A DNA stretch of 62,510 nucleotides, filler included, from Sphacelaria rigidula (Eukaryota), in the NCBI GenBank assembly GCA_964200075.2. It is 10 parts of 10 records of this genome, joined end to end, with 100 filler letters (N's around TTAATTAATTAA, not from the genome) between each part and the next. Parts side by side here need not be neighbours in the genome. Positions count along the whole stretch, not along the records: positions 50,089 to 56,249 come from CAXNAA020021856.1; 9 more parts are not named here. One strand, given 5' to 3'. Below, in pieces: positions 4,274 to 56,968 of the stretch; positions within the stretch are counted from its first letter, which is position 1; every line of letters starts with the position of its first letter. Both the position numbers and the translations under genes were made by a program. The notes under the pieces are model-generated. The model saw only the letters and a list, made by a program, of their open reading frames with translations. It was not told the origin of the DNA and searched no databases.

Positions 4274-6297
4274 AACGGGCCAATGCATGACAACCGATAT
4301 TGGACATGCATTTGCTCGGGGAATAAAACATCCAATATATATTGTGCATGCCGGCCGTGCATGTATTGAAGTGTCAATATGTATTGAGTCGAAGCGATGC
4401 GCAATATATTGTTACCATAATATATATATTGAACGCAAAGCATGCAGAAATATATATGTATATATATATATCATATATATATATATATTGCGCACGCTCA
4501 TCGCATAGCTATTGCGCAGCCAATATATACTGAATATGCTCGCCGAGGAATATATTGAGCGTTTTCGGCATGTGGTTATACATGATTCAGTGGCGCCCGC
4601 GAACATAAAACTGCCCACCGTACATATTCTAATACACTTTCCGATCTACATGTTGAAAGTACAAAAATACTGCTGCACCAACATGTAGTGTGACCGCCGG
4701 TTCCCTCGTGTATTGTCCGCCTGATATATTGTGGACGCATTGACGCACGACATATTGGGGCGGCAATATATATTGGCGCTTCGGGTGTTGAGTATATTGA
4801 ATAATCAATATATATATATATATATATTGACCTCGTATGGCAGCCAATGTATTACTCGACAAATATGTACTGGTGCCTTTTCTCTCCAACATATTACTCG
4901 GCCAATTGAAATTGAGGTGGCGCGTGTCGTGATATCTTGCTCGGCCGAGATATGCTGCACGTCGCAAGCCTTGACATTTTGATGGCACAATATATATTGA
5001 CCCTCTCTCGTGCCATCATATTGCTCACCCAATATATATATTGACCACCCGACGCGTCTTCATATTGAGCGGGCAATATATACTACATATTGTATCGTCC
5101 AGGGTGTGAAACCGTTCAAGCAAGAACATTCCGATTCTGAACAGGAAACGATGTACTACAGTATCCCTGAATACTATTCTACATGTTCAATTTGGAGCGA
5201 TGTTTCCCAAATACCCCCACAGTTGCCACAAATTATATCTGAGGAAGAGTGTGCCAGCACTTTCCCTGGGTCGTCCAGACCCCCTTTGGGACCTAGAGGT
5301 GAGGTACCTTTCGAAAAACCATACGTTCGACCCTGAACATACTGTACTACATTATCAGGAGGGTGTTGCAGGCAGAAGGCTCGCCAACCCGGTGGTGGGA
5401 GTTGCGACCGTGCGCAACAGATTGCGCCGTGTCTCTCCCGCACACCTCTTACGGGGTGACCAACACCACTGCAAGTCAGTGATAGAGCACACCTGCATAC
5501 ATATAAACAACTATCCGGAGCTGCGAAAATTGTGGGAAGTGACTGCACTACAACAGTGGTTCGTTACCTACGGACCTCGTCTGCGGATTGTGAAAAAATA
5601 AAAAAATGGCTCGGCGAAGACCGCCGTGTCCGTAGTTTCGCTGACGGCGGTCGTCGCCGGCGCAACAGTATGAAGTCTCTCTCAGATGCTAAGCAAGAGG
5701 CGCTCGAAAGCTCGATGACTAGTCCAAAGAGGTTTGTTTTCAGCATGTTTGCTTTCGATCTATGCGCTTAGATATACCCACCGCTTTACGAACTGTAGAC
5801 GCTACAACAGGAGGAGGTGCGGTAGCTCACGCTGGTGTCGGCGCAGCACGAACAGTATGACATTCTACCATCATACTCTTTGGCGCAGCAGGCGAGTACC
5901 TCGCTGCAAACGTTTCCCTGCCGTTCACTTCGAAAGTATGCATGTAGATGAACGGCCAGCACCGTACTTACGCCAGCGGCAGTTGCGCGACTGGGACATC
6001 GCCCTGTTACGTGTTCTGTAGCGGAGGCACGTCCTGTTGAAGCAACACCGTGCCCAGACGGCGTTTTTTCGTTTTTTGACCTGCTCATCTCCTCCGTTCC
6101 CCGTCCTCCGACGAAGGCCATGACCGGTCTTGTCGGTACGGCGTGGGGAGGGTCTTTTCGGNNNNNNNNNNNNNNNNNNNNNNNNNNNNNNNNNNNNNNN
6201 NNNNNTTAATTAATTAANNNNNNNNNNNNNNNNNNNNNNNNNNNNNNNNNNNNNNNNNNNNCCCCTTGTCCCCCCCCCCCCCCTAGAAAAGCTCCTC

Positions 6298-8285
6298 TTG
6301 TTATGGGGGGGCCCCGTGTTTTCCCCCACAAGGGGGAAGTGGGGGGGGGGGGGGGGGCAGGGAGGGCAGGAGACAGGGGAAGTAGAGACGACGGATCCGG
6401 AAGGGGATGATGAGGTAAAGTCGAGTGGGCCGGAAGGGCATGATGATGTAGAGTCGATTAGGCCAGGAGAGCAGGAAGTAGAGGCGGAGGCACCCCCTTC
6501 AGCCGCTCGTCGTATGCGCCATGTCGCTGAGCTTGCTGATTTTGATACTTCTGCGCGTGAGAATGATGAAGTAAGAAAAGGTAGAACTCGTGCGCAAACC
6601 CGTGCAGTTAATCAGCAGAGCGTGCCTGGCCTTGTGGCCACCCTAGGACCCATGTCCGCATCAGAGATAATGTATGCACTCTTAACGGAACAGAGAGCAG
6701 GTATCGCCGAGGAGTTGCCGAAAGAACTCGTTCAGAATGTTGAGTCAGAGCCTAATAGCTATCAAGAAGCCCGGCAATCGAAGCACGCAAAGATTTGGGA
6801 TGGAGCTATGTCTGCAGAAGTTGAAGGCTTGATAAGAGCAGGAAAGTTCACGTTAGCAGTAAAGATCCCAGTAGGCTGTAATATTATTGATGCTAGATGG
6901 GTTTTCAAATAGAAGGCAGACGAAACACGGGAGATGGTGAAGGCCAAGGCTTGTAGCGAAGGGCTTCAAGCAGAAGTATGGTGTGGACTATCTTGAGACT
7001 CGCCTACTGCAAATGCTGCATCGATGCGATTGCTAGCAGCGTTGGCGTGCAAGTACAACTTGGAATTACTCCACTGAGATATTGAGCAAGCGTTTGTTCA
7101 GTCGGAATTGGATCACGAGGTGTTCATGAAGTTGCCTCCTGGCTGCGGTTTGATGTCAGGAAAGGTTGTCCGTTTGAACTAGAGTTTGTGCGGATTGAAA
7201 CAGGCATCTAGAACATTTTACAAGAGGCTAGTGTCGGACCCGGAAAGGATTGGTTTCGAGCAGTCTCTGTCTGACCCCTGTGCCCTGCGTTTCATGATGG
7301 GAGACCAGGTGGTGGGTATGGTCGCGATTCACGTGGATGACATTCTGTATGCAGGAACTAGGAGTCTTTCCAAGGTGGTAGTGAAATCGCTAGGTGACTC
7401 TCTTCCTACGAAGAATTTGGGTGAGGTCAAGTTCTTTCTTGGTTGCGCATTTATTCGCGACCGTGAGGCTGGCACGATTAAGATTTGTCAAGAAAGTTAC
7501 ATCAGAAGTGTTCTCGAGAGGTTTAATATTTGTCGCACCAGCTCGATCCCTGCTTCCCTTGCCAACGATAACAGGTCCTTGATGAGGGATGAGAGAGCAG
7601 GAGATGTGCCGTTCCGAGAGGTGGTGGGGAGCCTGATGTGGATCGCCAACCAGATAAGGCCCGACATCTCGAATGCTGTGCGGGCGGTGGCGAGGCACTC
7701 TCACGAGCCAAAGAAGAGTCACTGGAAGGCAGACCAGAAGATTCCGAGTTAACTTCTGGAAACGACGCATCTAACTCTAAAGTTCAGGCAGGACAGTACG
7801 GTAGATGTAGGCACGTTGTTGTACGTAGATGCCGGCTTTGCAGGCACGGCCACTGACCGTAGATCCGTTTCGAGAGCGTTGATTTTTGTGGCTGCCATGC
7901 TTGGAGTTTCGATTTCTAGGACGCAGAAATGCGTTTCACAGTCGACTTCTGAAGCAGAGTATCTTGCGATGGGTGATGGTGTGAAGGAGGCTCTGTGAAC
8001 GGAATGCTTCAGTTCTTGAGGCCTGGTATGAAGCCTCGTAAGATTGAGATCCTTGAGGACAACGAAGGTGCGATTGCGCTTGCAGAGAATCCGCTTAGCT
8101 CGTGCAGGAGTAAACACATTGACGTGAGGCACCACTCTCTTAGGAATTTGACCGAGGAGGGTGTGATCGAGATCACGCATGTTCCCAGCGAAGAACAGCA
8201 TGAGGACATCCTCACGAAGGCTCTGCCGAGAGATCGTTTTGAAGTTCACCGTGATTTTGCCCTTGGCTCGAGAAATGAGCAGTAG
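6298..8285 (+). pseudogene. Ty1/Copia pol (RT + RNase H), decayed
   Basis: Motifs EPNSYQEA, ARWVFK, KGFKQKYGVDY, DIEQAFVQSEL, GLKQASR, HVDDIL, RPDI, QKCVSQSTSEAEY, EDNEGAI, SKHIDVRHH, DILTKAL, with several stops and frameshifts. Confidence 0.95.
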
Positions 8286-8346
8286 AAGTCTGCGTCGTGA
8301 TTTGTTCTCTTTGATTCATATTTGGTCTGGTAGATGCAACAGCCCC

Positions 8347-8813
8347 AAGGGAGGGTGTTCGTGATAGCGGCTGTAGTATCGATTGATTTGCGTAGAACAT
8401 CTGATTGGACGATTTGAATAACGGAACTGTCGATCTATAAGTTGCTGAGCTGCCACATCATTGAGAATTGCGAGGAACGTTCGCGGTCCTTTCTGTAGCT
8501 TATGTAGGAGTGCTCTTTGTGGATACTGCATTAGTCCGGGCATGGTATTTGTGGTGTGGGGAACAACCCGAAGTTTTGTGGTACGTAAGGAAGTGCGTTG
8601 GTCCGAGTTCCGTTGCTGGAACCATGTAGAACGTTGCTGAGGTTCCGGAACGTTTCCGGAACTTGTGTTTAGTTCTTTGGTTTCCAGAGTTTCTTGTTTG
8701 TAGATGACATGAGCTCACCTACTGTGCTCACTCCACTTTCCCGGCCCGTCTCTCCGGATCAAGGTCTCGATAATACAATATCTTTTTCTCCAGAAGTCAC
8801 GAGGTTACCAACA
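8347..8813 (+). mobile_element. Polypurine tract and probable 3' LTR of the Copia element (LTR ~8356-8813)
   Basis: AAGGGAGGG is followed immediately by TGTT at 8356, with a candidate AACA end at 8813. The second LTR is not in the contig, so the right boundary is inferred. Confidence 0.6.
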
Positions 8814-9009
8814 ACTCTGAACAGACCTGCAGTCTTAGAATACCCGACATGCAATATAAACCCGGACTTATGAACGGGTCTGAGGTGGCCTGACAACAGG
8901 CTAGTATGCGTCCTTATGACACTAACCCACCCAGACAAACCTTTAATACAGCTGCGAGGATTTATCCTAAAAGCAGCGAAGACGAACGTATTTTTTACTA
9001 GTGAAGTCA

Positions 9010-12000
9010 TGAACGGACGGTATGGTCGAGAAGAGATCGACGAGACGCCGGGTTGGAGGGTAACCCCACAGGGCCGCGTTTTGCAATGCCCAAGATCCGT
9101 CTTGGATCGGGAAAATCGGTCTTGGTACTGTGTAGCAGAACATGACTGAGTTCTCGGATGTCTGCCGGTTCCCAGCCGGGCCCATGAAGGTCAAACTTGA
9201 TGTCGCACATGTATGGCGGCAGTTGGTGCCACATTTGCAAGAAACTATGCCGAGAATCTGGTGATGAGCGTTGAAGTACTTCAGCAGGAGGACCGGAAAT
9301 TGACTGGGCAGGATCCACGGCGTGCACCTGGGGTGGAGTCGCAGAGGCGAGGTTGAAATAAGGTTCATCGACACAATAGACTGACTCCGTCAGAGATGTT
9401 GCGTTCGGCGCGGCAGGCTCTGTTACGCACGTCTCGAGTAGAATGTGCATCAGGGGAGCAGCGGTGATTCCTAAAATATCGCCAGGTTCCAAGTTAGCAT
9501 GAGCCGTAAGAGGGAGGAGTTGTTGTCCCGCCGAGACAAAATGTTTTGTGTCGGTTGGTGCGCCAATACGGGGTAACATTTCGGCAAGATAATGAACCGT
9601 AAGTGTTGGCATGCCATTTCGGCGAACTAGTGCAACTTCTAAAAGTTGAGGATCGTCGGAGAGTGTAATACCAACGCTACCGTTGTATCGTAGGTGGTAA
9701 GCAGCTCCGGCTGCTTGAGTATTATTTTGGTAGACCAGGGCGCCGTGTAGTGTATCAAAGTGTTCAAGGCTGAATTCTCCCCGAGACGTGAAATATGGCG
9801 ATGGTGGTGGAAGCGTGCGGCAGGTTTGTTTAAACCGCATATAGCTATATCTACCCAATAATGTGGCGTGGTGCATTGTGCTGTCGGGGACAATGTATGC
9901 CCAGACTGTCAGGCTGGCAGAACGAGTGGTATTGTGAAAGAATTGCACACTGAGACGTACAGATTTTCGTGTCGTCAGGGGTGCGGCAGAATTACCGAAA
10001 CCGCCCCATACTCGAGGTTGGGTGGTGATTTCGCAAGCTGCAGTAGCAGCGCCAGTCTATTTTATGTGTGTCCATGTTGATTCTCGAATAAATGTTTGCG
10101 GGCTGCCGCTGTCAAACAAGGACACGCATTTCGTAGGCGTGGTAGCGTTTACACCAGGGTGGATCGCAACGCGTGTAGTGAAGGTGGCCGGATCCACAGA
10201 CTCTTTACCGCCGACAAGATCCGGACCGTGTTCCAGCAAGGTAAATTGGTCAGGATCAGCGGGGCTGACAGCAAAAACGGACGGTGGGTGATCCGCCGGT
10301 GGCTTAGATTTTTCACCGGAGAATGGGGTGGGCGGTACATTATTTCCAGGCGTGGCACGGTCAGAGTGACCGGTAGCGATTTCGTAAATGATCGGCTTTG
10401 ATTGACAGGGATCGTCGTCCGAGGGGGATCCAGATTGTGCGGGGCTGCAGTCGTCGATTGAAGAAATAGTGCCGTCAGAAATGTTTCGTTTGGTTTTTTC
10501 CGTGATACTTGATAGAGCCGTCGAACTCAAAGTCGTCGCATTTTGGAGAGATTGAGGTCGAGAATTTCCGCTCGAAAGAGGTGTACGTGATGATGCACGC
10601 GCGTCCTCGAGGGCATGCTTACGGGGCTCTCGTTTTCGCCGTGACAATCGTCGGGGAACTTCCCAAACATTTTGGAATGATACCAGAAGTACCTCGAGTC
10701 GGGTGGATGAGGTCAGCATCGGGGCATATCGGAGCGAAACTTGTGGGCTGCTTTCCGCAGGCGAGCTTGGCTAGGGGGTCATAGCCGAAGGCATGTTGGG
10801 GTGGTTGTTATTAGAACGGCCGAAGGTTGTTCCGTGCGTGTTGAAAATCGCGGGGAAATAGCTCGTTCCAACTGATTGGGAATCACATGATCCGATGTGG
10901 TCAAGTTCAAATCAGCAACATTTGAGTCAGCTGAAAAAGGCTTGCTACTACCTGTGCGTGCGGTCGCTGAGGGAACCCTTTGCCTCAGGAACTGGCGGTT
11001 GATCCTCCCACACCTCAGACTTATACTCGGCACTAAAGGACCAGTTCAGGGCCGGGTGTAGGTTTGAGTCGCGGGTTGACACAACTGTTGCGCGGTGTGT
11101 GGAGGGGTGAAGGCGGGGGTCGACATGAACTGCCATCAGTTGCGCTCCTCCATAGTGCCGGGGGAGCCGGGTGAAAACTCTTAGTCGCGGGCTCTGCGGG
11201 CTGTGTTGAAAAGTGTGTGGAGGTTGGAGACGGGGGTCGATTAGAGCGGCCGTCAGTGACGCTCCTGGATGATGCCGGGGGAGCTCGGTGAACAATCTTT
11301 TTCACGGACTCCGCGGGCTGTGTTGAAAAAATCTTCGCTAATGCTGTTGGCGGCGCCGGAGACCGTAGGACGCGTTGGCACGTCATCGATCTCTGCGATC
11401 TGCAGTGAAGGTACCAGGGTTTCTGGTGTTGAGGTTCGAGTTGTGTGTCGGGCCCGTCCGTTTGTGTCTCTCGGCGGATCGTTTGTTGTCACCAGAATTA
11501 TGATCGTTCTGACGAGGGTTTGCATTTTTGTTCTTTTGTCGGCGACCGCAATTAAAGCGATCGTTGCCTCGTTGATTCGAATTATAACGATAATTTCGAT
11601 TTGGTGGGCGGTAGTCGCGCATGCTTTTTTGCCATCGGCGCCGCGCGGTTTCATTGTCCTGCAATCCAGGGTTCATGAGATCAAAGGCATTGATGCATGG
11701 ACTGTCACAGTCACGCATACTATGGCCTTGAACAGTACAGTTGATGCAACTGTTGGCGTGACTGCTAAAGGAGTTGCGTCTAGCAGGAGACAAAAGAAGT
11801 GGGTTTCACAAAATGAGGATCATCTGCATAAATGCCGTTGTTGAAGTCAAATAGACATCATCCCAAGTTTCTTCGGAGAACGGCCAACCATCAAAACTCG
11901 CACTAAACGCATCTCTGTCACTCTGAACATGCATAGTTGAACCGACGACCGAGTCAGGGGTCCATGAAGGGCGAGATGAACTCGAATTCCTGCCGCGAGA

Positions 12001-20434: not shown

Positions 20435-23400
20435 CGGGAACGTCACGCGTATCCCGATGTAACATTTCTACCGACCCCCGACGTCGGCCCGATGTACCCG
20501 TTTGCGCGCTCACTCGTTGGCCAGGAACAGACCGAGATGTTCCGCGGGCCTAGTTCGGCCGAGGGGCCGAAAGTGGATGTGATGGGGGAGTGTTGGAAGG
20601 CCCAGGAAGCCCTTGCAACGGCCCAAAACATCGCGGAAGAGAAGCGTCGGGTGTCGATGGTGAGGTTATTTTTTTGTATTTTTCGTGGATCGGTATTAGA
20701 ATTGTCGCAGTATGTTACTGGGTTGGATGGTTGGGGATGTTATTTTTTTCTGCTGCTTTTGAGGTTTTCGGAGCAAGTGGAGTTTTTGTTTTTGTTTTTC
20801 AACAGAGAGGGGAAGATGGTATGGTTTGTTCAGATCTGAGATCAATCCTCTCGTGTGCTTTATAGTGGTGGTATGCGGTAGGGAGAGAGTCGTTCGTTTT
20901 TCGTGAGGGGTATTGGAGGGAAGGATCAAATATCGCTTGCTTGCGTCCCTGGTCGTGGCGGCTGGAGGTACAAGTTATTTTTCAACACGTGGCGTCGCGT
21001 AAAACCCCTCTTTCAGGGAGGACCGAGGCCTGCTGGCCGACGGTCGCCCTCGCCACCCGAGTCATGGGAAGTTTGAGAGCTATGTGGTTAAAAGGCACTC
21101 GGGCTTAATGGCCAATATATTGAAATTTGAATCAAGAAAAATTCTCAGCGCCCAAGAGATTATGGAAGGGTGACTTCGCTTCGGGAGGACAGCAGGTCGA
21201 AGTTGGACGACCCTTGCAAATAGCAGATTGTACGACGCTCGGTGTTCAACATTGCCCGCAATTCGGAGCTATCCTTGCGTAGACCACGAGAAGCCACAAG
21301 CGCATTCTTGCCGTGCAATTCGCCTCTTCCATTACGTGAATGGTTACGAAATGTCCCTCCTCTTAACGAGATGTCTCGTCTTGTCCGGGTCGTCTCGTCT
21401 CGCACCATTTCACTCACAGGCGGAGTTGGGGGATATGTCGGGCGTGACCGGCACCAGATATCAAGAGTCAGCGCTGAATATTGTAGAATGGAGCAAAGAG
21501 GTGACAGGTACAGTAACTTCGGCCACTGCAGCCCTCACAGCTGCCGTTGAAAAGTTTCCGAGTTCAATGGTCGCGGTCAAGGGCGAGGAAAGGGATCTAG
21601 CCGTCAGTGCGAGCGCTGGCGTCACTACCGTCGGTGAATCTCGGAGCAGCAGTCGAATTGGATCGAGAACACACGAGCGCGGCACGCTCTCTCGGAGTCC
21701 GGCCGAGGCGCAGCAGCAGATGGACTGGAGGCATGTTTCCCACGCGCGAGCCGAGTGTGTGTCGGCGAAGCGGTCAGCGCGAGCGACCGTCGCCTTGGGC
21801 GGCGGTGGTAGCGGTGTTGGCGGAATGGGACATTCGGGGTCCGTTCGCCGGTGTAACAGCGAGATGATGTTTCGGTCCTTACAGCCAAGCCAAGCCAAGC
21901 AGCAAGCCAAGCCACGGCTGAGTTTCTCTTCCGTCGCCGATTCTGTTACCAGGTCCGCTTCTGGGCTGCAACATGGGCAAAAAAGCACACCAACAGGTGA
22001 GGGCGTCCCACCAGTGCCTCCTCCGCCGGCAGTGGCGTCAACGGCGTCACTTGAGCGCACGCATCCGAAGTTACTCATCCCACCCCCTGCGCCTACTTTG
22101 CGTCCTGTGGGTTGGGTGGCACCTGAGTCTTCAGCGCGTGCTCAACCCGTCTCGACACGTGATTCCGCAAGCGGCAACAGATCGATCTTTGCGTGTGCCG
22201 CGTCGGCTGGATCGGCTGGATCGGTGAAAGTGGCCGCCAAACCCACCCTGGGCCTGACGCGTGTAGCCGAGGGAGGCAGAGTGTGGCGACAGTCGATGGC
22301 AGCGGCCGCGGAGGAGAGACGGGCCAAGTCCCGTGCTGCAGCGGCGACGGCGGCCGCGGCAGCCCTGCCGTCATCGGCAGCATACGCAAATCCTACAGAC
22401 TTTCTACCGGACGGAAACCCCACACAGCAAGGAGGAAACGGAAACAGAAAGCTGTCGCCCGAAGAACAACAGCAACGGCATGCCGCAAACGCGAGGGCGA
22501 ACCACTGGCACTTGGAGTCGCAGCACGCCCGAGCATCTCCCGCCGTACGCCGGCAATGGATCGACGTCAGGGCCAACGGTAGTAGGCGAGAATTCGCTTC
22601 AGCTGCGAGCGCGCCGACGTACAACCGTACCGCACGACCCGCAACAGCGGCGGCCGCTGGGTATACGAAACAGGTAACAGGCGGAGACGCAGATAGTGGG
22701 GCGGGAGTTGCCCGATCGAGCCGTAGACAGTGTCGAACGGTGTGGCCTACCGAAGAGGCAACAAGCGAGCACCAGGCCGCCTCCGACGCTAGTGCCCACA
22801 ACCCTGCGAGCTCTGCGCCCCCAGAGGAAGTGCCACGCCCAGCTGTGTCCGACGCAGCAATTGCCGCGCTTCTCAGCGTGGAGACTTCACCTGTTCGGCC
22901 CGCGAGGGGTGGGGTGGCAGCGCTTGTCGGACGTGGGAGCAGTGCAGATGTGATGCCGCGGAGGTGGCAGCCTGACATCACGCGGGGTATACGATTAGAC
23001 CCCGTACCACTACCGGAGCAGGGTGATTGGAGGGAAGCTGGTGGGCAAGTAGAGGTCGTTGGAGGTGGTGGTGCCAGTGGCGGTGCCCGAGCTAGAACTG
23101 TAGGAGACAGGTGGACGCTTCCAGACTATGACGAGGACGAGGTGTGTAGGTCGACGATTGGGGTAGGAGTTGGGCACAGAAGCCGATGTCAACATCGTGT
23201 TTGTTGGCTAGAAACTAGTTTGCGTTCTGACTTTTTTTGTGTACACTGGAAAACTCTTGAACTGTTTCGCGGCATCGACGTCTGCAGCCGATGCGAATAC
23301 GTTGGGGTAAGTTGTGTTGGTTTCTTACAGCGCGATTCAAGATGGATTCATTATGTATATCTGTTTCCTAGCGAACGGGTTCGGACGCCTGGCTGTTGGC

Positions 23401-24092
23401 TTAGCCCTGCTTGTTTCAGGAGACGAAAAGCCGCTGGCGGCAGTAGTTTAATCCTGTCCATGCATTCAACGCGCGCACACGAGAGCTTCCAATCCCCCGT
23501 GAGCATCAAGCAGCACCGCTATTGGTGGAATACAACCATGGGAATAACCCCTGAAACGACTCTCAATTTCGGCGGACGAAAACGCCTCTCACTTTTCATG
23601 TGTTTTACTAATCACGCCATATCGGGTCATCGCGACGAACGACAGGCTGCCGCATTAAGACTGGCTAAGCGAGAGCAAGAGGTTCAGGCACGCGAAGACG
23701 CACAACTGGCGCTGCGTCTCACGGTGCTCGAAGAGGCGAGCCAGGAACGCCGCGCGGAAGCGGCCAGGCGCCGAGCGGCACGCCGTCACGAGCGCGCGGT
23801 TCAAAGGTACGCCCAAACCGTCACCTCGGGTCCCGCCGCCTTTTACGCCGCGGAAGATTCGGCGATGTCCGCTGCGGTGCGGGCGCTACAGTTCCAGGAG
23901 ATCGATGAGAACGACTTCGAGACTCTTTTGGAGTTGGATGCAAGCGGGGGTACGGGCGGTCGGCAGTGTAGCGGTGAGCGCGGTGTGAGCGAGGAGGCGT
24001 TGGTGGCTGCGCTGCAGCCGGCTACGGCTTCGGGGGATAGGCTGAACGAGACCTGTGCTATCTGCATGGCGGACTATGAGCTTGGTGAAGAG
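20435..24092 (+). CDS. Partial spliced gene for a low-complexity protein with C-terminal RING-H2 finger (probable E3 ubiquitin ligase); exons 20435-20659, 21420-23141, 23646-24092
   Basis: All three exons are multiples of 3 with phase-0 AG/GT borders. DFETLLELD...GVSEE...CAICMADYELGEE|gt is the typical run-in to a RING-H2. The second half of the RING was not found in the contig. Confidence 0.8.
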
Positions 24093-51516: not shown

Positions 51517-54483
51517 TCATCGCGAGTCCTTTACTTGGTGCTGCACGACTCTGTCATGGTGCAGCAATAAATCATTTTCCCTATCGCCAACTAAACAATC
51601 ATTGGGAGCACTACCACCACCACCACCACCACTACCACTACTACTAACACCAACACTACCGTCAACCCCCACCCTCCTTTTCATTGGGCCGCCTGGAAAA
51701 ATGCAGTCTGCCTTGGCAAACTCCTCGCAACCTTTCGGCGTAAACCACACGAGCGAAAATCGCTCGCCTCTAAAGGGCCTTGTCCAGTGGCGTTTTGTCC
51801 AGCCGTTAAACTCCCGCGGGCGGTACCGGATGTCCATTTCTTCTCCCTCCACAACCAACTGCCCCCCAACATAGTTACCCAGGCCCACAATCAAGCTGAG
51901 GCTCTGCCCCGCTCCCGTCCCGCTGTCGATATGCGGTCGGAATTGCGCGTGACGATTTATCGCGATTGTTGTCGAAGCGGGCCGGTTGGGGAGAAGCATG
52001 GACTCTAGTTCGAACGCGGCGCGTGTTAGCTCTGGGAAAAGGGTATTACCGCGCGGCGGGGGGCAAGGGGGGGGGAAAGATCCTACCGTGAAGGAGCCGC
52101 CGTGGGGTGCCGGTGCTGGCGGCGATGACTGTTGTTGTTGTTGTTGTTGTTGTTGTTGGTGGTGGTGGTATAAACCGCTACCATCATTGTCACCAACACC
52201 GTCATTGCTTCCTCCCTCGATCTTGTCCTCTTCCCGCTCCTGCTCACCAGACCCGTCACTTGATGTATCACAACCATCGTCACCCATTTCCGAGTCATAT
52301 TGCTCTTCGCCTTTGTTATGACCATCAGGTGCGCCATCAATAGTGCGCCTTTCGGACAGCAATAAGGCCTTCTTCAAGTAGCTCTTAGCCGAGGGAGCCT
52401 TCTTCTTCACCGCGCCGCCGAAAATGACAGAATCACGCGCCGGTGTGCTCGCCGGCCACAACCCAGACGCGTCCGCCTCTCTCAGGAGCCGCAAAACCTC
52501 CGCGTACAACGGTGGCGCAGTCGACAGGGATTGCTCCTCCAACGCTGACAATGGTTTCCGGACGATACCCGCAGAATTAGTATCCTGATCGTCGCCATCG
52601 GCTGCTGCTGCACTCGCTCTCTCATTCGCGGCGGCTAGCTCCGTTCGAAGCCTTGCAGCTCCGGGTTGAAGGACATCGTGCAGCCAACTAGCGCCAAGGT
52701 TTTTCTGTGTTTGCCACCACCTCGCGGCACTCTCTTGTACAGTCTGCCGAAACATCGACCCGGCCGCGCGCGTCTGGCTATCGCTCCATCCATCCAAGGG
52801 GTGCGCCAACCGCTTCGCCGCCGCCGGGGACATACAAACGCCGCCCAGCTTCGTCTGCCAGGTGGAATAGCTCACCTCGGCTAGCCAGCACGGCGGCAGG
52901 GGCGCAAGCGGCACGGGAAATATGTCCTCTTGTCTTGTGGGATCGATGCATGCAGAAATGTCTTGGGCATCGATCAGACCCCTCGCGGCCGCCACAGCGA
53001 GAGCGACCATGCCCCGCACCTGCCGGTCCACAAACGCATCGCCAGATATGGAAAGACAGACGTAATCCACATCGCGTATTGTCGCGGTAGAGTGAGAGTA
53101 GAACCGGTACAGACGACGGGACGCGGAGGGGCTGCGCGGCAGAGCTGAAGCGCTGAAGTTATGCCATAGTGGGCACCGCCGGCGCCTACGACCGCCGTCA
53201 AGACGCACGTTGCAACTCCCAAACGGTCGAAACGAAAGCGTCCTAACGCCCCTTAGCAAGGGTATCAGGGTCGTTTCTCCTCGGGCACCTCCTCCCCACG
53301 GACCCTCTGCAGTTCTATCGAATAGCCACGCGGGAATCAGGTACTCGTATCTTCGACGGGTGGCGTGGGCTTCCGCGTGTAGTTCCTTGGGAACCGGCAT
53401 TCGACCTAGGACTCTTACGCCGGAGCTGGCGAGGGCTGCGTTGGTCTCTTCGAGCCACGCTCGGATGTTGGAGGTGGGAACCGTGGTTGGTGCTTTGAGG
53501 CACATGGTGTCCGCCCTGTTATGTTACATATTTGCGATGTTAAAGCGAGTTGTTAGCCGGGTATTTTTCACTCGTAGCTCGGTGCGACTGTGTATCCCTG
53601 TATCACAAACGCGTAATCTAATATGAGCCCGTAGGACATGGGTCAGCGTGGTGCGCGTTGGAAATCAAAGATGCAAAGAATCACGCCAAGTGTTTTCCGT
53701 GGCGTCGTACCGAGGGATGCATTCAATTTCGGACAGAACAACCACTTTGCCTAGTGAGATGCAATTTTTCATCACGTCATTCAACAGGAATTCATACGAA
53801 GGAAACAGCCTCTCATGAAGAGGCGTTCACACCAAGTGCTTCGAATCACGCATACCAAATCGGACAGAGTAGAAGGCCACCTAGAAGGCCACGGATTCAA
53901 AAATGCAAGGTACATTTAAGCATACACATTGCGCTTACGTTGCACTGACGCCCGGTTCCTGCACCAGTACCGGGCACCGCCTTGACCCCACTGACGATGC
54001 CTGGCTAAACCCGACAGGCTTCGCGCCTGCCCCCGTGACTCCCGCAGTACGCTCCTCGAATCCCCTGACGCCCATCGCCCCCAGTATGCGCTCTCCTGCG
54101 CTATCGCTATCAGCCACGAGGAGAGAATAAGTATCGTCGTCATTTCTCGTTTCTTCTCCCGGAATGGCGTTAGGAAGGCAACAATCGTAGCCAAACAGAA
54201 GCATCACTTTCTCGCCGGGGTCTAGGCGAGGCGCGGAACAGCCGTCGGCTTGCCCACGTAAGTGGCGAAAAAGAGCACTCCTGCTCGCAAAAGTTTCTCC
54301 GCAGAAGGTGCAGCACGTTCTGACGGGGTCACGGACAGCAGCAGTAGCATCAGTTTTGGATGCTGCGGGTGGGGAACATGGCAGCAGTACTTCCGGTGTC
54401 GTTTCTGTGCTATATGTGTCCATGGTACTGGCCTTGTCGTTGGTTCCCATTATGGTTCGACGTGGAGGTACACGACTTGCCAA
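51517..54483 (-). CDS. C2H2 zinc finger + TruA/Pus1-like pseudouridine synthase fold + C-terminal 2OG-Fe(II) dioxygenase; exons (5' end uncertain, ~54483)-53939 and 53515-51517
   Basis: Phase-2 intron AC|gtaagc...aacag|G joins GVSAT-ADTMCLK. CTFCGETFASRSALFRHLR; PUS motifs KVMLLFGY, RRRYEYLIP, WHNFS, GDAFVDRQVRGMV, PLAP; dioxygenase motifs RPHIDSG, LGNYVGGQL, RHWT, GERFSLVWF. Confidence 0.85.
52127..52169 (-). repeat. (CAC)n(CAA)n coding microsatellite (poly-His/poly-Gln)
   Basis: Encodes HHHQQQQQQQQQQ in the linker between the PUS-like and dioxygenase domains. Confidence 0.9.
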
Positions 54484-56968
54484 TGTGTAACGTGGCAGCG
54501 CAATGTACGGGCTCTGCGGGGTGACTCGCTTTACGAAAAGCGCCTCACTGTACAGTTTCCACCAACTTATACTCTTGTGCAGCGACAGCGTTCACGCACG
54601 GCAGATCAAGTGTCACAAAAAATTAAAACCACAAATATCCAGCTTGGCTGCTTCCACCCGTCGTGTACATCAGTCGCAACTGTCCTTCCCCTAGCTGTCC
54701 GTTTGTGATCCTCCGCAGCGGGTAGTCTGGGGACCCTGGCGTGACCGAAAGCAAGGTTTGCCTGTGCTACTGCGTCTGCACTCCAACCGACGGTCCCCCA
54801 GACCGCGTAGATGCTGGAGTCGGGGATGAAAGCTGGGGGAGGGGATAAAGTAGGTCTTGTGTGATCACCACAGTATGGGTCGGTCGTTTGTGTTCGTAGT
54901 CAGTCTTGTACTGATTCCCTTCCCTCTGCCATGTACATTACCATGATATTGCTTCAAATGACCATAGGTTTTGAGGAAATATTGGATAATGATTTCAAGA
55001 TATGGCGTACAGTTGATTACACCTCTCTCGCGAAGCAGCGTTCGGGGACAAAACAAGTGGAGAGCGTTTCGATCCTGCCCCGATGCACAGGGTGTTGGCT
55101 CCACGACCAGAACTGAAAGGATAAACATAAGAAATTTTTATTCGCCATCATCATCGACGTCGTCAAGTGTTCATGTACTCGTGATCCAAACAGGACAGAC
55201 ATAGCTTGGAGGGGAGATACCTTTATCCGCTGAGGGGAATACCATGGCATCCGGTAGCAACGGCCATGGAGGGTCGGGCATGACCTACAGCTGGGCAGAC
55301 GTGGAAGTGCCTGAGGTAAACAAAGCAGTACTGACGGCTTTACAACTTGAGTAGCAAGAAATTATCGTGGGCAAAATGTAGTAGTTCTGGGAGAGAGTAA
55401 ATTGCGGTTGGCCCGTTAAACATACAACCACGGCATGTTCTTAGAACAAGAATTTGGACGTCGGAAATGGCTGTTATTGTACTGGCAGAAGTGTTGTCTG
55501 AGGCGGCGATACTAGATACACCCTGATGCTGGTGTGCGTTGTTTACATATGATGTGTACTCAAGTCCACGAAACACCAGCAGGTGCTTACCGCTGGCCTT
55601 CATCGTGGCAGACTGAAACACACACACACACTCAGACACACACAGGTGTGAGACTAAGCTCCTCATGTTGTGAGATCAAGCTCCCCGTTATGTGGGGCAA
55701 GCTCCCTTATTGTTCCGTGTTCAATGCACCGGTGTCTACGTTACTCGACACAACAGCTCAGTATACACAAGGGCGCCGTGTGTGAGTGACGACGTGGGTC
55801 ACGTATCGACGGGTCTTCAGCTGCATGCTGATGATACGCAGCTTGCGGTAAATATTCAAATGTTGCTGGTACTGCATTCACTTTGCAAATCCACGTCCAA
55901 ACGATAACCGCACGATCTGTGGTATACGGTGATGTGGTACGCAGAGAGTTGAACGAAACGCGGCAGGGTGGGGAAAATACGAGCGCGGGTCCAACCGCAA
56001 CCCAAGGCAAATAGAGAACCGGTGTGTATGAACGTTTCCGATAATGGATGCCCCAGCCAGAGTCTGCGCTGCTGGAACTCAAATCGGTGGAGTGCGAACG
56101 CGTGCAGCGAGCGATAGCAAGCACTGTCAGCCCCCTAAAGATCCGAATGTTGATTTCCAAACAAATTTCATGGCGACAGTTTGTTCAAGGCTCGAGAATT
56201 ATGGATTTTTTAAAGGGCACAATCAAGACTTGAGAAAAATCAAAACCACNNNNNNNNNNNNNNNNNNNNNNNNNNNNNNNNNNNNNNNNNNNNTTAATTA
56301 ATTAANNNNNNNNNNNNNNNNNNNNNNNNNNNNNNNNNNNNNNNNNNNNCCCCCGGGTTTTCTTGTCCTCAAGCGAGGGTTTCCGTTTTGGTCCCTTTCG
56401 CACGTCTATCTTCTGGATAATGACTACGCCTAGACCCCCTGGAGTCAGTTAATGTCCGACGATCACTCGATAAAGATAATCAGCATGGGACCAAGAGACG
56501 AACCCTTGGAAGAAAACATCGTCCTTCCTCCTTGACTTGTTCACCTGCACGCCAATGTTCCCGCTGTTGTAACCAATTTCAACATATGTTAAGGAACCTC
56601 AAGGGTTTTCCAGGCCACATCGGATTGGTTTTGTTTTCGGAAATTTGCTGGCCTTTCTCAGCTCACACCCAGCGTGTCGCCAGTCAGCACAGGAGTTGGA
56701 AGAAAGGGTTTGGTAACCTTTCCGAAACAAAAAGTTTAGATTTGTGAGCAGACCTCACTTCTTCTCCAGAATATGTTCATTTTCAGATCAATGTTCAAGT
56801 TTTCGATTTGTCCAGGTCGATCTCAGACCATCACACGTTCACCCGTGATTTGGAACTGGAAGGGATACATGATTAAGTAGGACCGAAAGAGTTGAAAGTC
56901 TTGGAAGGAAAATCTACCGTTAGAAAAAGACTGAGCAAAGCACAAGCGTGAAATGACTTTATATTTAC

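What the first reader, a model, noticed from the sequence alone, without database searches (positions are those of the whole stretch)
51517..54483. Pseudouridine-synthase fold with no recognisable catalytic Asp, fused to an intact-looking 2OG-Fe(II) dioxygenase and a C2H2 finger
Seen: one spliced ORF with C2H2 - TruA/Pus1-like domain - acidic/polyQ linker - dioxygenase carrying HxD (H 51931-51933, D 51925-51927), distal H (RHWT) and the 2OG-binding R (GERFSLVWF). Where TruA/Pus1 have RTDxGVxA, this protein has SQASSVGSRRCPVLVQEPGVSA. Established: that Asp is essential for pseudouridylation, and TET/JBP- and AlkB-type dioxygenases oxidise nucleobases. From memory, algal TET/JBP-related dioxygenases fused to RNA-modification domains have been predicted bioinformatically, so the architecture may not be entirely new. 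Inference: the PUS fold has been repurposed as a tRNA-binding or base-flipping module that delivers a base to the dioxygenase, implying an uncharacterised RNA modification.
Basis: partly seen in the sequence, partly recalled or inferred. Interest (0 to 1): 0.75.

Follow-up and report, generated by a model that had tools for sequence, protein, structure and literature searches.

The report
Pseudouridine-synthase-like protein fused to dioxygenase
An expressed algal gene joins a zinc finger, a pseudouridine-synthase-like domain whose key aspartate is a glutamate, and an intact-looking iron/2-oxoglutarate dioxygenase, which points to an uncharacterised nucleic-acid base oxidation.

Summary
The gene is real. 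It has two exons on the minus strand (54450-53939 and 53515-51520, 836 codons). Contigs of three runs, whose RNA kind is only guessed, carry the exact GT..AG junction.

The N-terminal finger is Cys-x2-Cys-x12-His-x7-Cys, not classical C2H2.

The middle domain has a PUS1/TruA fold. The RTD motif is replaced by VQE. A Glu, not nothing, sits where the family profile aligns the catalytic Asp of human PUS1. The pocket Tyr and Arg are kept. In 149 relatives that position is Asp in 86, Glu in 48 and other in 15. Diatom orthologues keep Asp.

The C-terminal 141 residues fold as a small double-stranded beta-helix dioxygenase. The HxD, distal His and RxS residues are invariant in 42 of 42 relatives. The domain matches no Pfam model. 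It shows weak, repeated affinity to TET/JBP.

Some relatives add an aldo-keto reductase or an FkbM-type methyltransferase.

My best reading is an RNA-directed base oxidase aimed by the PUS-like module. Whether that module still makes pseudouridine is open.

I found no description of the family in print. A 2009 prediction that I recall could not be read.

The parts
53939..54450 (-). Coding exon 1: N-terminal tail, zinc finger and first third of the PUS-like domain (170 codons plus 2 bases).
   Evidence: Frame and first ATG. Transcript-like contigs cover it and run at least 218 letters beyond 54700.
53516..53938 (-). Intron, 423 bases, GT..AG.
   Evidence: Sequence. The joint that skips 423 bases is seen in contigs of X1, X2 and X3. 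It is absent from the X5 contig, which runs through.
51520..53515 (-). Coding exon 2 (first base completes the Thr codon, then 665 codons). The stop codon is at 51517-51519.
54238..54312 (-). Zinc finger, C-x2-C-x12-H-x7-C (residues 47-71).
   Evidence: Sub-threshold Pfam C2H2 hits. The same spacing occurs in 69 of 293 session proteins, and 22 have classical C2H2. The Ectocarpus orthologue model shows two short strands and a helix at the finger.
52840..54210 (-). PUS1/TruA-fold domain, interrupted by the intron.
   Evidence: PF01416. Family profile against PUS1 at E 1.4e-23. Foldseek of the orthologue model against 4nz6 at E 3.2e-15, TM 0.75 on the target.
53956..53958 (-). Glu165 (GAA) in the column of the catalytic Asp, within VQEPGVSA where PUS1 has RTDKGVSA.
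   Evidence: Transcript-like contigs show no other letter here (table 3).
53347..53349 (-). Tyr equivalent to human PUS1 Tyr201, the aromatic residue of the pocket.
   Evidence: Alignment to 4iqm. Active-site residue list of hPUS1 (passages of PMC3983220)..
53014..53016 (-). Arg equivalent to human PUS1 Arg295, in the QVR motif.
52435..52497 (-). Conserved helical motif (LLREADASG-WP) ahead of the dioxygenase. It is also present in relatives that lack the PUS part.
   Evidence: Consensus of A1 and A2. Helices in the model.
52118..52308 (-). Low-complexity acidic stretch and His/Gln run (CAG repeat 52118-52175). Predicted disordered in the orthologue.
51685..52107 (-). Small DSBH Fe(II)/2-oxoglutarate dioxygenase domain (141 residues). 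H 51931-51933, D 51925-51927, distal H 51787-51789, R 51760-51762, S 51754-51756.
   Evidence: AF2 pLDDT 90.0. Foldseek CcTet 5.7e-5 and NgTET1 3.5e-4. VIA NgTET1 Z 9.4, AlkB Z 8.6. Ligand residues invariant in 42 of 42.

Best explanation
This is an expressed gene of a widespread algal family. An N-terminal C2HC finger and a PUS1-type domain are joined through a conserved helical segment to a small Fe(II)/2-oxoglutarate dioxygenase distantly allied to TET/JBP.

Most likely mechanism:
1. The finger and the PUS-like domain bind a structured RNA.
2. They hold a flipped-out pyrimidine in a pocket that keeps the Tyr, the Arg and a carboxylate (Glu here, instead of Asp).
3. The dioxygenase hydroxylates a base of the same RNA with O2 and 2-oxoglutarate, most plausibly at a C5 substituent of a pyrimidine.
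4. In relatives, a fused aldo-keto reductase or an FkbM-type methyltransferase works on the resulting carbonyl or hydroxyl group.

Shown: gene structure, both folds, and the residue conservation.
Inferred: RNA as the substrate, cooperation of the two domains, and the chemistry.
For: - Gene structure: splice junction in contigs of three runs. Continuous orthologues.
- PUS fold: PF01416 above cut-off. Profile against PUS1 at 1.4e-23 and yeast Pus1 at 4e-17. Foldseek at 3.2e-15.
- Pocket: HNF motif in 132 of 149 relatives. Carboxylate in 134 of 149. Of the 48 Glu-bearing relatives, 40 keep an aromatic residue plus Arg. The window has Glu, Tyr and Arg.
- Dioxygenase: pLDDT 90 DSBH. The best structural matches are nucleic-acid oxidases: CcTet, NgTET1, AlkB, ALKBH2/3/6. 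H59, D61, H107, R116 and S118 are invariant in 42 of 42. Twelve of 42 relatives give weak Tet_JBP hits and no other 2OG family is hit.
- Domain packing: the whole-protein model of the Ectocarpus orthologue has pTM 0.79 despite 155 residues below pLDDT 50, which suggests a fixed arrangement of the domains. This last point is my inference.
- Fusion partners: I scanned 25 relatives, chosen because their dioxygenase is not C-terminal. PF00248 (aldo-keto reductase) was found in 13, PF05050 (FkbM methyltransferase) in 3 and an R3H nucleic-acid-binding domain in 1.
- Two relatives keep a canonical RTD with Tyr and Arg next to the same dioxygenase, so the fusion probably began with an active PUS.
Against: - No substrate is shown. 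All chemistry is inferred.
- Fold scores do not separate TET from AlkB or prolyl hydroxylases. Z values run 9.4 to 8.0 and are tied within about 1. The tool also warns that a best Z of 7-8 is common.
- The window domain itself hits no Pfam, PHROGs, NCBIfam or PDB sequence.
- TET/JBP enzymes act on DNA, not RNA.
- The apparent link between Glu and the Tyr-Arg pair is explained by shared descent. In 8 independent pairs the Tyr state hardly ever differs (sign test p 1 for Tyr, median 0.5 for Arg).
- I could not obtain model coordinates. Neither the position of the Glu carboxylate nor the distance between the two pockets was measured.
Confidence: 0.5

Rival explanations
1. True bifunctional enzyme. 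The PUS domain still makes pseudouridine, with Glu as the catalytic carboxylate. The dioxygenase then modifies that pseudouridine or a neighbouring base.
For: - The window and the brown-algal clade keep Glu, Tyr and Arg.
- A carboxylate is kept in 134 of 149 relatives.
- Two relatives have canonical RTD, Tyr and Arg with the same dioxygenase.
- Passages of PMC3973310 name Asp, a basic residue and an aromatic residue as the conserved active-site set.
Against: - The Asp is treated as the universal catalytic residue of all pseudouridine synthases (PMC3973310). D146A abolishes hPUS1 activity (PMC3983220).
- I recall, unverified, that Asp60 to Glu inactivates E. coli TruA (Huang et al. 1998). My search did not find this.
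- The Arg of RTD is Val here.
- Diatom members lose the Tyr and often the Arg. Repeated Asp/Glu interchange is not seen in working PUS families.
Confidence: 0.25
2. DNA pyrimidine hydroxylase of the TET/JBP kind (thymine to 5-hydroxymethyluracil, or 5mC oxidation). The finger and PUS-like domain serve as reader or targeting modules, possibly through RNA or R-loops.
For: - The top Foldseek matches are DNA enzymes: CcTet, NgTET1, CMD1.
- Weak Tet_JBP Pfam hits in 12 of 42 relatives.
- The family reaches dinoflagellates (Polarella). Divergent dinoflagellate TET/JBP homologues make 5hmU in DNA (abstract and passages of PMC11572971).
Against: - The partner domain is an RNA-enzyme fold with its RNA-pocket motifs kept.
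- No DNA-binding domain is detected other than one finger.
Confidence: 0.12
3. Protein hydroxylase (prolyl-hydroxylase-like) acting on a ribonucleoprotein. The PUS-like domain serves only as an RNA or ribosome anchor, like the catalytically silent TruA-like assembly factors of trypanosome mitoribosomes.
For: - Prolyl hydroxylases score nearly as well as TET and AlkB (5iax Z 8.2, 6f0w 7.9, 4iw3 7.7).
- A giant-virus relative passes the Pfam PF13640 cut-off (30.9 bits against 27).
- TruA-like mitoribosome factors match the PUS part (6sga_FB at 4.8e-7, 9hny_FB at 3.7e-7).
Against: - No member of A2 hits PF13640, while 12 of 42 hit Tet_JBP.
- The conserved carboxylate, Tyr and Arg pocket is unnecessary for a mere anchor.
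- The methyltransferase and aldo-keto reductase partners fit small-group chemistry on a base better. This point is inference.
Confidence: 0.08

Closest known systems
PUS1 (human 4iqm/4nz6, yeast 7r9f), TruA family of pseudouridine synthases
   Same: Same fold and best sequence match. Shares the HNF motif, the pocket Tyr (Tyr201 equivalent) and Arg (Arg295 equivalent).
   Different: RTD is VQE: the Arg is lost and the Asp is replaced by Glu. The protein adds an N-terminal C2HC finger, a helical linker and a C-terminal dioxygenase. It scores far below the TruA equivalog cut-off (38.9 bits against 142.85).
TET/JBP dioxygenases (NgTET1 5cg8, CcTet 7vpn/7w5p/8jkk, CMD1 7cy7)
   Same: Best structural matches of the C-terminal domain. 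Shares the HxD...H...R ligand set. Weak Pfam Tet_JBP hits in 12 of 42 relatives.
   Different: The window domain reaches no Pfam threshold. It is a bare core of about 130 residues without the TET inserts. It is fused to an RNA-enzyme fold. Z values are tied with AlkB and prolyl hydroxylases.
ALKBH8 (AlkB-type dioxygenase fused to an RRM and a methyltransferase; 3thp)
   Same: The logic is the same: a 2OG dioxygenase joined in one chain to an RNA-binding module and a second RNA-modification domain. From general knowledge it hydroxylates a tRNA wobble uridine derivative. The ABH8 chain matches at Z 7.4.
   Different: ALKBH8 has a different dioxygenase family and different partners. Its partner methyltransferase is active, whereas the state of the PUS pocket here is unknown.
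Catalytically silent TruA-like assembly factors of trypanosome mitoribosomes (6sga FB/FC, 9hny FB/FC)
   Same: A TruA fold used within a ribonucleoprotein. These chains match the PUS part at E 3.7e-7 to 6e-6.
   Different: They carry no dioxygenase. The pocket residues here are largely kept.
Small standalone homologues in giant viruses (Nucleocytoviricota)
   Same: The nearest Atlas clusters of the dioxygenase domain are 141-155 residue viral proteins (scores 0.96-0.97). Locus L001 encodes a relative (37% identity, E 6e-13) that passes PF13640.
   Different: They have no PUS or finger part. The neighbouring genes in L001 (ligase-PolX fusion, rhodopsin, DnaJ) give no functional hint.

Membership tests
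TruA/PUS1 pseudouridine synthases | PUS core fold and Pfam PF01416 | tested here: met
   PF01416 scores 30.5 bits against a cut-off of 23.3 on exon 2. Family profile against 4iqm at E 1.4e-23. Foldseek against 4nz6 at 3.2e-15, TM 0.75 on the target, for the Ectocarpus orthologue model.
TruA/PUS1 pseudouridine synthases | Catalytic Asp in the (G)RTD loop | tested here: not met
   The window has VQE, with Glu in the aligned column. Across the family the column is Asp in 86, Glu in 48 and other in 15 of 149.
TruA/PUS1 pseudouridine synthases | Pocket aromatic residue (hPUS1 Tyr201) and basic residue (Arg295) | tested here: met
   The window has Tyr at 53347-53349 and Arg at 53014-53016. Across the family Tyr is found in 52 and Phe in 11 of 149, and Arg in 67 of 149.
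TruA/PUS1 pseudouridine synthases | Curated equivalog score (TIGR00071 hisT_truA) | tested here: not met
   38.9 bits against a cut-off of 142.85.
TruA/PUS1 pseudouridine synthases | Uridine-to-pseudouridine isomerase activity | not testable with these tools
   Needs an enzyme assay.
Fe(II)/2-oxoglutarate dioxygenase superfamily (DSBH) | Double-stranded beta-helix fold | tested here: met
   Model of the window domain has pLDDT 90.0. Nineteen Foldseek matches at E of 0.001 or better, all among those listed being 2OG oxygenases. Seven chains at Z of 8 or more.
Fe(II)/2-oxoglutarate dioxygenase superfamily (DSBH) | HxD...H iron triad and Arg (RxS) for 2-oxoglutarate | tested here: met
   H59, D61, H107, R116 and S118 of the domain are invariant in 42 of 42 aligned relatives. 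Coordinates.
TET/JBP (Pfam PF12851) | Pfam model at gathering score | tested here: not met
   The window domain hits no family at E up to 10. Twelve of 42 relatives give sub-threshold hits, best E 0.0015. The viral relative scores 17.4 bits against 34.9.
TET/JBP (Pfam PF12851) | Closest structural neighbours are TET/JBP rather than other 2OG oxygenases | tested here: inconclusive
   Foldseek ranks CcTet and NgTET1 first. NgTET1 scores Z 9.4, but 6n1f scores 8.8, AlkB 8.6 and a prolyl hydroxylase 8.2, all tied within about 1.
AlkB family | Pfam AlkB model (2OG-FeII_Oxy_2), and the second Arg of the C-terminal Rx(N/S)xTxR motif (this motif is recalled) | tested here: inconclusive
   No Pfam hit. 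The fold match to AlkB is Z 8.6. The sequence reads RFSLVWF, so the recalled second Arg is absent.
Classical C2H2 zinc finger | C-x2-4-C-x12-H-x3-5-H and the Pfam gathering score | tested here: not met
   The pattern is C-x2-C-x12-H-x7-C. zf-C2H2_4 scores 22.2 bits against 27, and zf-C2H2 scores 20.8 against 25.2.

The most novel reading that the evidence does not exclude
A natural pseudouridine-synthase pocket that runs on Glu instead of the otherwise universal Asp. It is coupled in one chain to a TET/JBP-like dioxygenase and makes an undescribed oxidised pyrimidine in algal RNA: a hydroxylated pseudouridine, or a C5-hydroxy or C5-hydroxymethyl uridine derivative. Relatives with a fused aldo-keto reductase or FkbM methyltransferase would process it further.
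Probability: 0.2. Interest if true: 0.85.

Novelty: new variant of a known kind. Interest (0 to 1): 0.6.

Why it matters
Multi-domain RNA modifiers that pair a 2OG dioxygenase with a second modification domain are rare. ALKBH8 is the textbook case.

This family is large. The dioxygenase domain alone finds 1106 clusters at 50% identity with E of 0.001 or better. Named members come from diatoms, brown algae and a dinoflagellate, groups that dominate marine primary production. Its dioxygenase has no Pfam model, and I found no biochemical study of it.

Finding its substrate could add a new modified nucleoside. It could also show whether a PUS pocket can work, or be reused, with Glu in place of the invariant Asp.

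The repeated Asp/Glu exchange with retention of a carboxylate is itself unusual for this fold.

Tried and rejected
SEARCHES WITH THE DIOXYGENASE DOMAIN THAT FOUND NOTHING
- Pfam at E up to 10: no family.
- PHROGs: none.
- NCBIfam: none for the dioxygenase.
- PDB sequences with the family profile A2: only a chance hit at E 0.53. With A1, no dioxygenase chain appeared among the 60 rows shown of 64.

CONTEXT
- Twelve neighbouring frames of the window (39.6-62.4 kb) gave no Pfam family.
- The one viral locus found (1 relative among 19 pattern matches) has uninformative neighbours.
- No whole genome is held for the window.
- No earlier notes of this scan exist for this place.

EXPRESSION
- No RNA holder is listed as such. 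The kind of runs X1-X4 is only a guess.
- I read them as transcript-derived because of the spliced joint and the tenfold lower intron depth.
- No contig was shown to bridge the CAG repeat.

STATISTICS
- The striking table in which Glu goes with Tyr and Arg does not survive control for descent. In 8 independent pairs the Tyr state almost never differs, with p 1 for Tyr and median p 0.5 for Arg. I therefore do not claim co-evolution.

LITERATURE
- Four searches found no paper that describes a pseudouridine-synthase/dioxygenase fusion.
- Iyer et al. 2009 (Cell Cycle 8:1698, PMC2995806) may describe it. I recall that its abstract mentions an algal dioxygenase family predicted to modify RNA, with diverse domain architectures. 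The paper is not held, so this remains recall.
- The effect of Asp-to-Glu in TruA could not be found and is also recalled.

STRUCTURE
- Model coordinates are not returned, so no residue-level superposition was made.
Full report
GENE MODEL

On the minus strand, two open frames (53935..54591 and 51517..53523) join in frame. Exon 1 ends at 53939, followed by GTAAGC. Exon 2 starts at 53515, preceded by AACAG. The first ATG of the upstream frame is at 54450, not at 54483. The product has 836 residues.

Contigs of runs X1, X2 and X3 carry a joint that skips exactly 423 bases. The ends read CT..AC on the plus strand, which is GT..AG on the gene strand. These contigs have depth 56-64, while separate intron-only contigs have depth 3-6. 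A contig of run X5 runs through the intron. The RNA kind of X1-X3 is only guessed by the tool. The spliced form and the depth contrast are why I read them as transcripts.

The contigs show no letter differences from the genome, so the Glu codon discussed below is not edited (table 3). They break at the CAG repeat (52118-52175), so no single contig was shown to link the PUS part to the dioxygenase part. That link rests on two things: the uninterrupted genomic frame, and full-length orthologues, some from transcriptome assemblies.

FAMILY

Exon 2 finds 62 relatives among 7999 scored candidates. The closest is 85% identical and unnamed. The closest named ones are brown algae (Ectocarpus at 53-55%, Choristocarpus at 46%), followed by diatoms.

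The dioxygenase domain alone, searched exhaustively, finds 1106 clusters at E of 0.001 or better and 255 at 1e-30 or better. Named members include Chaetoceros, Thalassiosira, Cyclotella, Mayamaea and the dinoflagellate Polarella. Atlas neighbours of the whole Ectocarpus protein are diatom clusters.

ZINC FINGER

Residues 47-71 read C-x2-C-x12-H-x7-C. Pfam C2H2 models score below their cut-offs (22.2 bits against 27). Among the 293 proteins checked, 69 share this spacing and 22 have a classical C2H2. Another 169 lack the pattern altogether, many of them being N-terminally truncated gene models.

PUS-LIKE DOMAIN

PF01416 passes its cut-off. A profile of 52 family members matches human PUS1 at E 1.4e-23, yeast Pus1 at 4e-17 and bacterial TruA at about 7e-7.

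A model of the Ectocarpus orthologue has mean pLDDT 77.6 and pTM 0.79. The model matches PUS1 4nz6 at E 3.2e-15 with TM 0.75 on the target.

In the profile alignment the family's Q-D/E pair falls on the T-D of RTDKGVSA. The window has VQEPGVSA. The catalytic column therefore holds Glu165 (53956-53958).

Passages of PMC3983220 name D146, Y201, H292 and R295 as the hPUS1 active site, with R144 in the catalytic loop. Counting along the 4iqm alignment, Y201 and R295 correspond to a Tyr and an Arg that the window keeps. R144 corresponds to Val.

Across 149 relatives with this region aligned:
- The acid column is Asp in 86, Glu in 48 and other in 15.
- The residue before it is Gln in 106.
- HNF is kept in 132.
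- Of the 48 Glu-bearing rows, 40 have an aromatic residue plus Arg.
- Of the 86 Asp-bearing rows, mostly diatoms, only 7 have Tyr plus Arg.
- Two relatives keep a canonical RTD with Tyr and Arg.

On a FastTree of these rows, built without the trait columns, the acid column changes state at least 19 times. Asp and Glu differ in 8 well-supported independent pairs. The association of Glu with Tyr and Arg is not significant once descent is controlled, so I do not claim it as co-evolution.

My reading is that a carboxylate is under selection but its exact length is not. This differs from working pseudouridine synthases, where the Asp is treated as universal (PMC3973310 passages). In the window's clade the rest of the pocket is intact.

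DIOXYGENASE

The last structured 141 residues (51685-52107) hit no Pfam family even at E 10, and no PDB sequence even as a profile. Folded with 42 relatives, the domain gives pLDDT 90.0.

Structural matches:
- Foldseek: CcTet 5.7e-5, NgTET1 3.5e-4, a Burkholderia 2OG oxygenase 3.7e-4, ALKBH2 5.9e-4, ALKBH6 9.5e-4.
- Exhaustive aligner: NgTET1 Z 9.4 (rmsd 3.0, 127 aligned), 6n1f 8.8, AlkB 8.6, CcTet 8.4, ALKBH3 8.2, a bacterial prolyl hydroxylase 8.2.

These Z values are ties, and the tool warns that a best Z of 7-8 is common. The DSBH fold is secure, but the subfamily is not.

H59, D61, H107, R116 and S118 of the domain are invariant in 42 of 42 relatives. Twelve of the 42 give weak Pfam Tet_JBP hits (best E 0.0015) and none hits another 2OG family. 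A giant-virus relative (37% identity, E 6e-13) passes PF13640 and weakly hits Tet_JBP. The nearest Atlas clusters of the domain are small proteins of Nucleocytoviricota.

FUSION PARTNERS IN RELATIVES

Of the 292 session proteins that carry the domain, 24 have 150 or more residues after it. I scanned 25 proteins, picked because the domain is not C-terminal. Thirteen carry an aldo-keto reductase, 3 an FkbM-type methyltransferase and 1 an R3H domain. One such protein comes from a transcript assembly (P0054).

These partners suggest that the dioxygenase product is a hydroxyl or carbonyl group that is then methylated or reduced. This is inference.

INTERPRETATION

The dioxygenase looks active. The inference that the PUS fold lacks its catalytic residue is only half right, because a Glu stands in its place, the Tyr and Arg are kept, and diatom orthologues keep the Asp.

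I favour an RNA-directed base oxidase aimed by the finger and the PUS-like pocket (0.5). The rivals are:
- a truly bifunctional enzyme with a Glu-driven synthase (0.25);
- a TET/JBP-like DNA hydroxylase (0.12), made more plausible by the dinoflagellate thymidine hydroxylases of PMC11572971;
- a protein hydroxylase on a ribonucleoprotein (0.08).

NOVELTY

Four literature searches found no description of this fusion. I recall that Iyer et al. 2009 predicted an algal dioxygenase family with RNA-modifying architectures. That paper is not held, so prior prediction cannot be excluded.

The gene is one orthologue of a large, uncharacterised family. I rate it a new variant of a known kind (multi-domain RNA modifiers with a 2OG dioxygenase).

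Noticed in passing
relatives P0112 and P0140 (no window coordinates): Two relatives carry a fully canonical RTD loop with the pocket Tyr and Arg, next to the same dioxygenase. P0140 also has an N-terminal R3H domain and a C-terminal aldo-keto reductase (1689 residues). They may represent the ancestral, catalytically complete form.
   Followed up: partly
relatives such as P0071, P0082, P0151, P0153, P0176, P0186, P0203: The dioxygenase domain is repeatedly followed by an aldo-keto reductase (13 of 25 scanned) or an FkbM-type methyltransferase (3 of 25). Some of these proteins have no PUS part in the predicted product.
   Followed up: partly
L001:404-2974 (giant-virus contig): Upstream of the viral dioxygenase homologue lie a fused ATP-dependent DNA ligase / family X polymerase gene and a bacteriorhodopsin-like gene. 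The homologue itself is a 92-residue frame that covers only query residues 46-123, so it may be truncated or split.
   Followed up: no
window 54700 and upstream: Transcript-like contigs continue at least 218 (X1) and 183 (X2) letters beyond 54700. The 5' untranslated region is therefore longer than about 450 bases, or there is a further upstream exon.
   Followed up: no
window 51603-51661 and 52118-52175: Two simple repeats lie inside the coding region: a Gly/Ser run near the C-terminus and the CAG (Gln) run in the linker. Short-read contigs break at both.
   Followed up: no
window 22001-24000: G+C content rises to 0.608 here, against roughly 0.42-0.57 in the other 2-kb bins of the window.
   Followed up: no
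window 6001-12000: Sustained positive GC skew of 0.16-0.19 over 6 kb.
   Followed up: no
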